From a virus, in the UHGV virus genome UHGV-0256785: a stretch of DNA of 26,660 bases. One strand, 5' to 3'. The position numbers were made by a program, and so were the translations under genes. The notes beneath the pieces were generated by a model, which did not search any database, was not told the origin of the DNA, and saw only the letters and a list, made by a program, of their open reading frames with translations. Positions 2,924 through 4,318 of the stretch are shown piece by piece. How positions within the stretch are numbered: position 1 is the stretch's first letter; the number at the start of each line of letters is the position of its first letter.

Positions 2924-3121
2924 ATGCTAAAACAGCAGGATATGACCGAAACCGCCAGAGTGGTGTTTAATGAATTAAGTGTCACCGAACCAGCGACCGT
3001 CGGGGAAATTGCGCAGAATACTTACCTTTCACGCGAACGCTGCCAGTTAATACTGACCCAGCTTGTTATGGCGGGTCTGGCAGATTATCAGTTCGGTTGT
3101 TACAGACGCCTTCCTCAGTGA
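2924..3121 (+). CDS. small (65 aa) putative winged-helix DNA-binding protein; function unknown
   Basis: ATG at 2924 preceded by AAAAGGAAAAAAGAC; the longer track ORF from 2801 would read through the upstream terminator, so the internal start is preferred; followed by its own terminator. Confidence 0.5.
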   Translation: MLKQQDMTETARVVFNELSVTEPATVGEIAQNTYLSRERCQLILTQLVMAGLADYQFGCYRRLPQ

Positions 3122-3131
3122 AGGCTTTTTT
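3108..3131 (+). terminator. intrinsic terminator overlapping the stop of the 65 aa gene
   Basis: Stem GCCTT (3108-3112) / AAGGC (3121-3125), 8 nt loop, T6 run 3126-3131. Confidence 0.5.
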
Positions 3132-3271
3132 ATTTGTGGTAATGGGCGGCTGGTGGGTGTTAGCGGCACCTGCCAGCCATCTGCTCATGCGTTGGGGTCA
3201 CAAGCAAACCTCAGGCCCATCTGCTTTGCGCAAAAGCAGAATGAGCCTATCAGAGAAGTGCTTATTGATCT

Positions 3272-4318
3272 ATGGCTAATACTGTAAAAATATCCAGTTG
3301 TGAGTTAATCAACGCTGATTGCCTGGAATTTATCCAGACCTTACCGGAAAACTCTGTCGATCTGATAGTCACAGACCCGCCATACTTTAAAGTGAAGCCC
3401 GAGGGCTGGGATAACCAGTGGAAGGGCGACGATGATTACCTGAAATGGCTGGACCAGTGTCTGGCGCAATTCTGGCGGGTACTGAAGCCTGCCGGAAGTC
3501 TTTACCTGTTCTGTGGTCATCGCCTGGCATCTGATATCGAAATCATGATGCGTGAACGCTTTAATGTGCTGAACCACATTATCTGGGCGAAGCCGTCCGG
3601 GCGCTGGAACGGATGCAACAAGGAAAGCCTGCGGGTGTATTTCCCGGCAACAGAACGCATTCTGTTTGCAGAACATTATCAGGGGCCATACCAGCCCAAA
3701 AATGACGGCTATGCGGCAAAGGGGCGTGAACTAAAACAGCACGTCATGGCCCCGCTGATTTCTTACTTTCGTGATGCGCGTGAATCACTGGGAATAACGT
3801 CAAAACAGATAGCGGAAGCCACCGGAAAGAAAAACATGGCTTCGCACTGGTTTGGTATCAGTCAGTGGCAGTTGCCGAACGAAGGCGATTATCTGAAATT
3901 ACAGGCGTTGTTTGCGCGTGTTGCAGCAGAAAAACATCAGCGCGGTGAGCTGGAAAAGCCACATCACCAGCTGGTCAGCACATACAGTGAACTGAACCGG
4001 CAATATGCCAGTCTGCTGGATGAGTACAAATCCCTGCGGCGTTATTTTTCCGTATCGGCTGCCGTTCCGTATACGGATGTCTGGACGCACAAGCCTGTGC
4101 AGTATTACCCCGGCAAACATCCCTGTGAGAAACCGGCGGATATGTTGCGTCAGATAATTACTGCCAGCAGTCGTCCGGGAGATTTGGTTGCTGATTTTTT
4201 TATGGGGTCGGGGTCAACAATAAAAGCAGCATTATCGCTGGGAAGGCGTGCAATAGGTGTGGAACTGGAAGAAGATAGATTTAACCAGACTGTAATTGAA
4301 ATAAAAAATAATCGTTAA
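3272..4318 (+). CDS. orphan DNA methyltransferase, beta-class amino-MTase (N6-adenine or N4-cytosine), with a ~100 aa insertion between the catalytic and AdoMet-binding motifs
   Basis: DPPY motif near the N-terminus (LIVTDPPYF) and FxGxG motif near the C-terminus (FFMGSGST), i.e. motif IV before motif I; 348 aa; no restriction endonuclease partner ORF anywhere in the window. Confidence 0.85.
   Translation: MANTVKISSCELINADCLEFIQTLPENSVDLIVTDPPYFKVKPEGWDNQWKGDDDYLKWLDQCLAQFWRVLKPAGSLYLFCGHRLASDIEIMMRERFNVLNHIIWAKPSGRWNGCNKESLRVYFPATERILFAEHYQGPYQPKNDGYAAKGRELKQHVMAPLISYFRDARESLGITSKQIAEATGKKNMASHWFGISQWQLPNEGDYLKLQALFARVAAEKHQRGELEKPHHQLVSTYSELNRQYASLLDEYKSLRRYFSVSAAVPYTDVWTHKPVQYYPGKHPCEKPADMLRQIITASSRPGDLVADFFMGSGSTIKAALSLGRRAIGVELEEDRFNQTVIEIKNNR

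What the first reader, a model, noticed from the sequence alone, without database searches (positions are those of the whole stretch)
2924..4318. Orphan beta-class DNA methyltransferase with an internal insertion, a small DNA-binding partner and an upstream palindrome
The methyltransferase has motif IV (DPPY) before motif I (FxGxG) with a ~100 aa insertion between them, and no restriction endonuclease is present in the window. Upstream lie a 65 aa putative winged-helix protein with its own terminator, a 9 bp direct repeat CCATCTGCT (3177-3185 and 3217-3225), and a 7 bp-stem palindrome CTGCTTT/AAAGCAG (3221-3239) about 30 nt before the methyltransferase start. The layout suggests a regulated self-protective methylation module, possibly against host restriction or methylation-sensing defences, but the target sequence and regulation are unknown.
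Basis: partly seen in the sequence, partly recalled or inferred. Interest (0 to 1): 0.5.

Follow-up and report, generated by a model that had tools for sequence, protein, structure and literature searches.

The report
Known phage methylase behind undescribed RNA leader
The gene is an ordinary relative of M.EcoGII, a prophage enzyme known to methylate every adenine, but the "palindrome" in front of it is part of a conserved folded RNA leader that is absent from the RNA-family database and unannotated in genome records, and that probably keeps this toxic enzyme switched off.

Summary

- **Methyltransferase (3272-4318).** It is 86% identical over its full length to M.EcoGII, the prophage beta-class enzyme shown to methylate adenine in any sequence context. 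The "insertion" is that family's normal central target-recognition domain.
- **Setting.** The gene lies in the Q-dependent late operon of a lambdoid prophage, downstream of an IsrK-type short late-promoter RNA and three terminators. The window holds no restriction gene.
- **65-aa ORF (2924-3121).** It is a real winged-helix protein (phrog_331, function unknown). It is a frequent but dispensable neighbour: the methylase occurs without it, and it occurs without the methylase.
- **9-bp direct repeat.** It is not conserved in relatives and is probably chance.
- **Palindrome (3221-3239).** It is the apical hairpin of a 137-nt structured leader (3135-3271) that ends at the ATG.
  - The leader is more conserved than the coding DNA (87% against 72%).
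  - Covariation supports its fold: 24 of 41 pairs show compensatory changes.
  - It pairs the SD-less region just upstream of the AUG.
  - It is present in 36% of complete E. coli genomes, unannotated, and matches no Rfam family.
  - Divergent members precede a C5-cytosine methylase gene or holin genes in other phages.

The enzyme is known. The leader RNA is the new lead.

The parts
1458..1853 (+). Antiterminator Q gene; sets the late-operon context
   Evidence: PF06530 Phage_antitermQ, E=2.5e-52
1858..1971 (+). Late promoter pR'-like site (1858-1887) and the IsrK-type short late RNA ending in terminator tR' (1894-1971)
   Evidence: Promoter-like TTGACC-18-TATATT and a terminator at 1950-1966. 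Rfam isrK 69.1 bits, above its gathering score. IsrK is described as the product of an antitermination-regulated phage promoter in PMC7547250.
2775..2804 (+). Intrinsic-terminator-like hairpin with T-run at the start of the conserved small-ORF/methylase module
   Evidence: conserved in six phages
2924..3121 (+). 65-aa winged-helix protein of unknown function (phrog_331; named 'TrmB family' by NCBI annotation)
   Evidence: 334 homologues at E<=0.001. phrog_331 E=1.4e-37. Weak PF01978 match, E=0.0026. AlphaFold2 model pLDDT 89.9 with H1-H2-H3 and a beta-hairpin wing. Foldseek matches to winged-helix domains, TM 0.7-0.8.
3108..3134 (+). Intrinsic-terminator-like hairpin with T-run ending the small ORF
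   Evidence: GCCTTCCTCAGTGAAGGC followed by TTTTTTATTT
3135..3271 (+). Structured RNA leader that ends at the methylase ATG. P1 3142-3147:3183-3188; P2 3148-3161:3165-3178; P3 3195-3200:3266-3271; P4 3202-3206:3259-3263; P5 3213-3216:3245-3248; P6 3218-3220:3241-3243; P7 3221-3227:3233-3239.
   Evidence: Minimum-free-energy z-score -4.3; helix coordinates. Covariance model hits directly upstream of the ATG in 51 of 51 genomic loci searched and 44 of 47 viral hits. Covariation counts. No Rfam family. Unannotated in 1947 E. coli genomes.
3221..3239 (+).
   Evidence: All 5 pairs show compensatory changes in the wider family.
3177..3225 (+). The two CCATCTGCT copies; probably a chance repeat
   Evidence: Expected 0.25 copies; 4 of 100 shuffles reach 2. 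Not kept as a repeat in relatives.
3272..4318 (+). M.EcoGII-family beta-class N6-adenine DNA methyltransferase. DPPY at 3374-3385, target-recognition domain about 3674-4051, FxGxG at 4199-4213.
   Evidence: PF01555 E=8.8e-44. 86% identity to M.EcoGII over 347 aa. 72% identity to SUPREM. 93% nucleotide identity to phiP27 L23-L24.
4487..4640 (+). tRNA-Thr(UGU) and tRNA-Gly(UCC) downstream of the methylase, then the lysis genes; context only
   Evidence: ARAGORN and Rfam tRNA. Holins and M15 endolysin.

Best explanation
The ORF at 3272-4318 encodes an orthologue of M.EcoGII, a prophage-borne beta-class N6-adenine methyltransferase that methylates adenine in essentially any sequence context. Its central, roughly 125-residue 'insertion' is the family's helix-turn-helix target-recognition domain.

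The gene sits in the late operon of a lambdoid prophage. In a lysogen, transcripts from the late promoter stop at the IsrK-type terminator (tR'), and two more terminators lie ahead of the gene, so the enzyme is silent. After induction, RNA polymerase modified by Q reads through. The enzyme is then made late, heavily methylates newly replicated phage DNA before packaging, and so protects progeny against adenine-methylation-sensitive restriction in the next host.

A 137-nt structured leader (3135-3271) directly precedes the AUG. The AUG has no Shine-Dalgarno sequence, and the leader's closing helices pair positions -1 to -6 and -9 to -13. The leader therefore most likely holds translation of this toxic enzyme down or gates it. 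It belongs to an apparently undescribed family of structured RNAs found in late operons of temperate phages of Enterobacterales.

The 65-aa winged-helix gene is a separate late gene, often linked to the methylase, of unknown function.

**Shown here:** homology, motif order, gene context, terminators, conservation of the leader and covariation in its helices.
**Inferred:** non-specific activity, late timing, the anti-restriction role, and translational repression by the leader.
For: **Identity**
- PF01555, E=8.8e-44.
- 86% identity to M.EcoGII across the whole protein, target-recognition domain included.
- 72% identity to SUPREM, an engineered relative that is also non-specific.
- 86% identity to the methylase of phage 1720a-02, which Murray et al. 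name as very similar to M.EcoGII.
- The family is described as DPPY, central target-recognition domain, FxGxG.

**Silence in lysogens and toxicity**
- PMC5778455 and PMC6602927.

**Late-operon context**
- Q gene, promoter-like site, isrK match and terminators.
- IsrK is the short RNA from an antitermination-regulated late promoter.
- The same order, Q, small ORF, methylase, tRNAs, then stx or lysis genes, is seen in phiP27, Stx2a_1447, PhiR40_1 and cdtI.
- No restriction enzyme in the window.

**Leader**
- It is more conserved than the coding DNA: 86.6% against 72.4%, and 64.3% for the 200 nt upstream.
- No conserved upstream ORF crosses it.
- Predicted folds agree across genera.
- On the 77 distinct methylase-type and closest viral sequences, 93.9% of cells are paired against 30-41% when partners are slid, and 20 of 41 pairs show compensatory changes.
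- With divergent members added, 24 of 41 pairs show compensatory changes and the covariation score is 0.337 against 0.074 or less.
- Positions -1 to -6 and -9 to -13 have probability of being unpaired of 0.14 or less.
- In the C5-methylase variant the start codon itself lies inside the closing helix.
Against: - Activity and specificity were not measured. The target-recognition domain differs from M.EcoGII at roughly one residue in five.
- No transcript data were available. Expression from the late promoter and read-through of the terminators are inferred from layout alone.
- Covariation was counted on alignments fitted to my own structure, which biases the counts towards it.
- One column pair (A5 columns 60 and 84: CG 21, UA 11, AU 10) supports an alternative helix that competes with P4, so the single fold given here is incomplete.
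- In the holin-associated members the motif ends about 50 nt before the start codon. Occlusion of the start region therefore cannot be the motif's general function.
- P1 and the possible GUGR:UCAC helix vary on one side only or not at all, so they are unproven.
Confidence: 0.7

Rival explanations
1. One reading: the 65-aa winged-helix protein is a controller-type regulator that binds the palindrome or the direct repeats upstream of the methylase gene and sets its transcription.
For: The protein has a winged-helix fold. It lies directly upstream of the methylase in 64 of 81 genomic loci and 42 of 44 viral loci. The spacer between the two genes is 150 nt in all six phages compared. The centre of the palindrome is a perfect DNA palindrome in many loci.
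Against: The leader and its hairpin persist in 14 loci that lack the small ORF. One O157:H7 prophage examined keeps the small ORF but has an AraC-like gene in place of the methylase. Related motifs in front of holin or C5-methylase genes never have the small ORF. A terminator separates the ORF from the leader. No sigma-70-like promoter was found at 2800-3272. The direct repeat is not conserved.
Confidence: 0.1
2. The winged-helix protein is a subunit or targeting factor of the methylase that changes its substrate choice. The precedent is PNB-2, a winged-helix protein that forms a complex with the MT-A70 methylase of Stx phage PA8 and directs it to 16S rRNA.
For: A winged-helix protein encoded just upstream of a Stx-phage methylase forms a 1:1 complex with it and directs rRNA preference (PMC10810198). 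Linkage here is frequent. The M.EcoGII papers read here describe cloning and expressing the methylase gene and do not mention this ORF.
Against: That enzyme belongs to a different family (DPPW, MT-A70). The two genes here are found independently of each other. They are separated by a terminator and 150 nt. M.EcoGII is fully active alone and elutes as a homodimer.
Confidence: 0.1
3. The conserved spacer is a DNA-level feature rather than an RNA: a recombination linker or Chi-bearing hotspot where phage mosaic segments are exchanged, or a promoter.
For: The 5' arm of P2 contains Chi (GCTGGTGG, 3149-3156), and a second Chi lies at 2833-2840. Ten Chi sites cluster in the first 5.5 kb of the window. 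Gene cassettes are swapped around the element: different upstream genes, and a different downstream gene with only the first domain of the leader retained. A TGTGRAAAT stretch resembling an extended -10 precedes P1.
Against: Helices keep their pairing while their sequence changes completely. P2 in Proteus and in the holin-type members has neither Chi nor sequence similarity. The -11 position of the putative -10 element is not A in the window or in several other loci. Twenty-four of 41 pairs show compensatory changes.
Confidence: 0.1
4. The methylase is sequence-specific, or acts mainly on host RNA or DNA as a regulator, rather than providing blanket protection of phage DNA.
For: About 20% of target-recognition-domain residues differ from M.EcoGII. 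M.EcoGII also methylates RNA. Another Stx-phage methylase alters prophage induction through rRNA methylation.
Against: The extant enzyme and the reconstructed ancestors that bracket this sequence are all largely non-specific. Homologues are silent in lysogens. The gene lies in the late operon.
Confidence: 0.1

Closest known systems
[quoted passage not shown]
   Same: Beta-class motif order with a central helix-turn-helix target-recognition domain. 86% identity over the full length. Prophage location with no cognate nuclease. Silence in lysogens is expected.
   Different: Roughly one target-recognition-domain residue in five differs, and activity is untested here. The upstream leader and small ORF do not come up in the M.EcoGII papers read here.
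Phage phiP27 genes L23 and L24, and the 'DNA methylase' of many Stx2 phages, phage 1720a-02, PhiR40_1 and cdtI
   Same: The same three-part module (small ORF, 150-nt spacer, methylase) downstream of Q and upstream of tRNAs. phiP27 is 93% identical in nucleotide sequence.
   Different: Those phages carry stx, cdt or lysis genes directly downstream. This window has tRNA-Thr and tRNA-Gly followed by holins, with no toxin genes.
Controller (C-protein) regulated restriction-modification systems
   Same: A small DNA-binding-type protein is encoded next to a methylase gene, with a palindrome nearby.
   Different: There is no restriction enzyme. The protein is a winged helix rather than an Xre-type HTH. 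The palindrome lies downstream of the protein's own gene and beyond a terminator. Linkage is dispensable.
PNB-2 with M.EcoPA8orf6770P of Stx phage PA8 (Gong, Chakraborty and Koudelka, 2024)
   Same: A Stx-type prophage methylase with a winged-helix protein encoded just upstream.
   Different: That methylase is MT-A70 (DPPW), lies in a different part of the prophage, and needs the partner for rRNA preference. No interaction has been shown here.
Structured 5' leaders that occlude a ribosome-binding region (translational riboswitches; the lambda N leader with its RNase III site)
   Same: A conserved multi-helix leader whose closing helix covers the initiation region. It has an invariant core, covarying stems and gene-specific 3' ends.
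   Different: No Rfam family matches. No ligand, protein or nuclease partner is known. In holin-linked members the motif does not reach the start codon.

Membership tests
M.EcoGII family (beta-class N6-adenine methyltransferase) | Motif IV (DPPY) is N-terminal, the target-recognition domain is central, and motif I (FxGxG) is C-terminal | tested here: met
   DPPY at residues 35-38 and FxGxG at 310-314. PF01555 covers residues 29-339.
M.EcoGII family (beta-class N6-adenine methyltransferase) | Full-length sequence similarity that includes the target-recognition domain | tested here: met
   298 of 347 residues identical to M.EcoGII (the reference was read from a scanned supplement, so this is a lower bound). 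72% identity to SUPREM. 86% identity to the phage 1720a-02 enzyme.
M.EcoGII family (beta-class N6-adenine methyltransferase) | Methylates adenine in any sequence context | not testable with these tools
   Inferred from homology only (PMC5778455, PMC11551740).
M.EcoGII family (beta-class N6-adenine methyltransferase) | Prophage-borne orphan that is silent in the lysogen | tested here: inconclusive
   Prophage late-operon context and absence of a nuclease are shown. Silence is inferred from the terminators and from the literature.
Type II restriction-modification system | A cognate restriction endonuclease gene lies adjacent | tested here: not met
   None in the window. Four of the five related phages show no nuclease gene beside the methylase. 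phiP27 has a GIY-YIG gene one gene upstream of the small ORF, but no other locus examined has one in that position.
C-protein controlled methylase | An Xre-type HTH controller with C-box operators upstream of its own gene, obligatorily linked | tested here: not met
   The fold is a winged helix. The palindrome lies downstream of the ORF and its terminator. The genes occur independently.
Any Rfam 15 RNA family (for the leader) | A covariance-model match at 3122-3271 | tested here: not met
   No match at E<=1 in the 3.5-kb scan. Only noise at E<=10 on the 201-nt scan. Nothing on the motif in three variant loci.
Riboswitch-like cis-regulatory RNA (for the leader) | Conserved core, covarying helices and variable expression platforms upstream of functionally related genes | tested here: inconclusive
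   Core and covariation are shown. The leader reaches the start region in both methylase types. There are hints of alternative pairing. Ligand binding and switching cannot be tested here.
Winged-helix proteins (for the small ORF) | H1-(S1)-H2-H3-S2-wing-S3 topology | tested here: met
   AlphaFold2 model with pLDDT 89.9: helices 4-16, 26-33 and 37-49, strands 53-56 and 59-62. Foldseek TM 0.7-0.8 to IclR, MarR, Z-alpha and SelB winged-helix domains.

The most novel reading that the evidence does not exclude
The 137-nt leader is a member of an undescribed class of riboswitch-like RNAs in the late operons of temperate phages of Enterobacterales. In this reading an invariant core (GUGRAAAUGGGCG ... 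CCAU ... GCUCAUG ... UCAC ... AGGCCCA), framed by covarying helices, senses a cellular or phage signal. That signal could be a metabolite, a protein, or the folding kinetics imposed by antiterminated RNA polymerase. The RNA then gates expression of dangerous late genes: an N6-adenine methylase here, and a C5-cytosine methylase or holins elsewhere.
Probability: 0.25. Interest if true: 0.8.

Novelty: new variant of a known kind. Interest (0 to 1): 0.5.

Why it matters
M.EcoGII is widely used as a reagent for chromatin footprinting and RNA work, and it is toxic when expressed. How phages keep it silent and then switch it on has not been worked out. A conserved leader RNA present in about a third of complete E. 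coli genomes would be a concrete and easily testable control element. Its relatives in front of holin genes suggest a wider layer of post-transcriptional control over phage late genes. For the enzyme itself the finding is ordinary: one more member of a characterised family.

Tried and rejected
- **Upstream ORF across the leader.** Open frames vary from 6 to 76 codons between loci and none is conserved.
- **Sigma-70 promoter between 2800 and 3272.** None was found. The TGTGRAAAT stretch lacks the -11 A in the window and in several other loci.
- **Known RNA family.** Three Rfam scans found nothing on the element.
- **Solved M.EcoGII structure.** None exists in the PDB copy; the best matches are generic beta methylases.
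- **Literature search for the leader sequence.** No paper holds it.
- **Literature on the module or a late-region sRNA.** Keyword searches turned up no account of the small ORF, the leader, or an sRNA at this position.
- **The svsR prophage sRNA paper.** It is unrelated.
- **The Koudelka Stx-phage methylase.** It belongs to a different family, MT-A70 with DPPW.
- **Supplement of the M.EcoGII paper.** It is not held. The sequence was taken from the SUPREM supplement instead.
- **RNAalifold on the plain MAFFT alignment.** It gave a poor consensus because the P2 arms were misaligned, so a covariance model was used to realign.
- **A two-state (ON/OFF) fold.** One strongly covarying pair supports an alternative helix, but that helix is not kept in Morganellaceae or in the holin-type members. 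It stays a hypothesis.
- **Some hits to the pattern GTGAAAATGGGCGACCG.** Those in front of a D5_N-like gene lie inside coding sequence and were discarded.
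Full report
**Context.** The window is the late half of a lambdoid prophage.
- From the left it carries a DUF968 gene (44-1093), RusA (1106-1477) and antiterminator Q (1458-1853).
- These are followed by two holin genes and an M15 endolysin (5201-6235), then lambda-type terminase, portal, head and tail genes out to 26 kb.
- Just downstream of Q lie a promoter-like site (1858-1887) and a match to the IsrK RNA (1894-1971, 69 bits, above its gathering score) that ends in a terminator.
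- IsrK is described as the short RNA made from an antitermination-regulated phage late promoter, like lambda 6S RNA and StxS (PMC7547250).
- Everything downstream, including the finding, therefore lies in the Q-dependent late transcript.

**Checking the observation.**
- All stated features are present. These are the 65-aa ORF at 2924-3121, its terminator at 3108-3125 plus a T-run, the 348-aa methylase ORF at 3272-4318, the two CCATCTGCT copies, and the inverted repeat at 3221-3239.
- DPPY lies at residues 35-38 and FxGxG at 310-314.
- The 9-mer repeat is barely beyond chance: 4 of 100 shuffles give two copies.
- The inverted repeat is beyond chance: 0 of 100 shuffles.
- No nuclease domain was found in any sizeable ORF.

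**The methyltransferase.**
- It matches PF01555 at E=8.8e-44.
- The solved structures it matches are generic beta-class enzymes. They align only to residues 8-145 and 266-340, leaving the middle unmatched.
- The DNA is 93% identical to genes L23-L24 of phage phiP27 and 78-90% identical to the 'DNA methylase' region of many Stx2 phages, phage 1720a-02, PhiR40_1 and cdtI.
- Murray et al. (PMC5778455) describe M.EcoGII as one of a very large family of E. coli prophage methylases, name phage 1720a-02 as carrying a very similar enzyme, and give the layout as DPPY, central target-recognition domain, FxGxG.
- Using the M.EcoGII sequence printed in the SUPREM paper's supplement (PMC11551740), the window protein is 86% identical over 347 residues, the central region included.
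- It is 72% identical to SUPREM, a reconstructed relative that is also largely sequence-independent.
- The same paper models residues 160-237 as a four-helix bundle with a helix-turn-helix motif, joined to the catalytic core by a charged linker.
- So the 'insertion' is that domain, and the expected specificity is any adenine.
- Homologues are not active in lysogens, and M.EcoGII slows growth when expressed.

**The small ORF.**
- It is a real gene. It has 334 homologues at E<=0.001 across Escherichia, Salmonella, Klebsiella, Citrobacter and Buttiauxella.
- Protein-level conservation persists where the DNA has diverged.
- It matches phrog_331, a family of unknown function.
- The AlphaFold2 model is confident (pLDDT 89.9) and shows a three-helix, beta-hairpin winged-helix fold.
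- The fold resembles the winged-helix domains of IclR and MarR regulators, Z-alpha and SelB.
- Linkage to the methylase is frequent but not obligatory.
  - The ORF is detectable upstream in 64 of 81 genomic loci and 42 of 44 viral loci.
  - Where it is missing, unrelated genes sit in its place.
  - In complete E. coli genomes it occurs at 4058 places, against 2615 for the methylase.
  - In one O157:H7 prophage examined it is followed by a truncated leader and an AraC-like gene instead of the methylase.

**The spacer is the unexpected part.**
- In six phages the gap between the small ORF and the methylase is 150 nt, and the spacer is better conserved than the small ORF.
- Across 50 loci from Escherichia to Proteus and Morganella, the last 137 nt before the ATG align well and contain many invariant positions.
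- Measured against a Salmonella reference, the leader averages 86.6% identity. The methylase coding DNA averages 72.4% and the 200 nt upstream of the leader 64.3%.
- No conserved ORF crosses the leader.
- The window sequence folds more stably than shuffles (z=-4.3), and independently predicted folds agree across genera.
- A covariance model built from this alignment finds the element ending at the methylase ATG in all 51 genomic loci searched and in 44 of 47 viral-contig hits.
- On 77 distinct sequences, 93.9% of cells are paired against 30-41% when partners are slid. Twenty of 41 pairs show compensatory changes, against 6-9 in the slid controls.
- In the window, the helices are P1 3142-3147:3183-3188, P2 3148-3161:3165-3178, P3 3195-3200:3266-3271, P4 3202-3206:3259-3263, P5 and P6 3213-3220:3241-3248, and P7 3221-3227:3233-3239.
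- There is no Shine-Dalgarno sequence. Positions -1 to -6 and -9 to -13 are predicted to be paired.
- The element matches no Rfam family, is unannotated in RefSeq, and occurs in 1947 of 5426 complete E. coli genomes.
- A full-text search for its sequence found no paper.

**A wider family.**
- Three weak model hits led to divergent relatives.
- These keep the same core: GUGAAAAUGGGCG, a P2 hairpin, CCAU..GCUCAUG, UCAC, the P4 5' strand, AGGCCCA, an apical hairpin, and the P4 3' strand.
- They precede a C5-cytosine methylase gene (PF00145), where the AUG sits inside the closing helix, or holin genes of several types.
- None of these relatives has the small ORF or an M.EcoGII homologue nearby.
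- In one of them (L119) the motif lies between a Q gene with its promoter- and terminator-like region and the holin gene.
- When these relatives are added, 24 of 41 pairs show compensatory changes (237 cells). The covariation score is 0.337 against 0.074 or less for slid partners. All five pairs of the apical hairpin covary.
- In most Enterobacteriaceae and holin-type loci the motif directly follows a GC-rich, terminator-like hairpin.

**Caveats on the RNA.**
- The alignments were fitted to my structure, which favours it.
- P1 varies on one side only.
- One column pair (A5 columns 60 and 84: CG 21, UA 11, AU 10) supports a helix that competes with P4. The corresponding P4 pair fails in 23 of 51 sequences. 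The RNA may therefore adopt alternative folds.
- In holin-linked members the motif ends about 50 nt before the start codon. Occlusion of the start region fits the two methylase contexts but cannot be the motif's general role.

**Mechanism proposed.**
- In the lysogen, late-promoter transcripts stop at the IsrK terminator, and two further terminators (2775-2804 and 3108-3134) back this up.
- After induction, Q-modified polymerase reads through.
- The structured, SD-less leader limits or gates translation of the methylase.
- The enzyme then methylates phage DNA broadly before packaging, which blunts restriction in the next host. This is the role proposed for M.EcoGII.
- Timing, activity and the leader's effect are inferences.

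**Verdict.** The enzyme is a further member of a characterised family. The proposed regulatory role of the small protein through the palindrome is not supported. The direct repeat is probably chance. The palindrome points to an apparently undescribed, widespread structured RNA, which is what deserves follow-up.

Noticed in passing
window 1881-2699: Directly after Q lie matches to isrK (1894-1971), c4-a1b1 (1881-1934) and C4 antisense RNA (1997-2081). They are followed by an ORF6N anti-repressor gene that is split into two overlapping ORFs (2135-2347 and 2328-2699), which match positions 1-65 and 70-187 of the same PHROG family. This looks like a P1 immI-like or Gifsy-1 IsrK-like module with a frameshifted anti-repressor.
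   Followed up: partly
window 85-5522: Ten Chi sites (GCTGGTGG; six on the + strand, four on the - strand) all lie in the first 5.5 kb, and none in the remaining 21 kb of structural genes. About 1.4 are expected for the whole window. Two of them flank the small ORF (2833 and 3149), and the one at 3149 forms the 5' arm of leader hairpin P2.
   Followed up: partly
window 3267-3270: A GATC (Dam) site is invariant at -5 to -2 before the methylase ATG in all 50 aligned loci. It forms part of the 3' strand of helix P3, and some loci also have GATC in the 5' strand.
   Followed up: no
window 4487-4640: tRNA-Thr(UGU) and tRNA-Gly(UCC) occupy the position where Stx phages carry ileZ, argN and argO followed by stx. 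This prophage has no toxin genes there.
   Followed up: no
window 4738-5175: Four terminator-like hairpins are clustered between the tRNAs and the first holin gene. A sub-threshold match to the sRNA family STnc100 lies at 4835-5030 (28.6 bits; gathering score 47).
   Followed up: no
L091 3294-3441; L119 2186-2330; L106 6121-6265 (viral contigs): Divergent members of the leader RNA family precede a C5-cytosine methylase gene or holin genes. In L119 the 3' strand of P4 could instead pair with a downstream repeat of the P4 5' strand, next to a hairpin that covers the holin Shine-Dalgarno sequence. This resembles a riboswitch expression platform.
   Followed up: partly
L206 3001-4047 (E. coli O157:H7 ATCC 35150): Here the small winged-helix ORF is followed by only the first domain of the leader and then a 237-aa helix-turn-helix (AraC-like) gene in place of the methylase. 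This suggests that cassettes are exchanged within the leader.
   Followed up: partly
L001 3742-4971 (phage phiP27): phiP27 carries a GIY-YIG nuclease-family gene (L22) between Q and the small ORF. No other locus examined has a nuclease gene at that position.
   Followed up: no
L048-L075 (Xenorhabdus and Photorhabdus loci): These methylase homologues (66-69% identity) keep a small-ORF homologue upstream but have a shorter spacer. It lacks the second domain of the leader and scores only weakly with the covariance model.
   Followed up: partly
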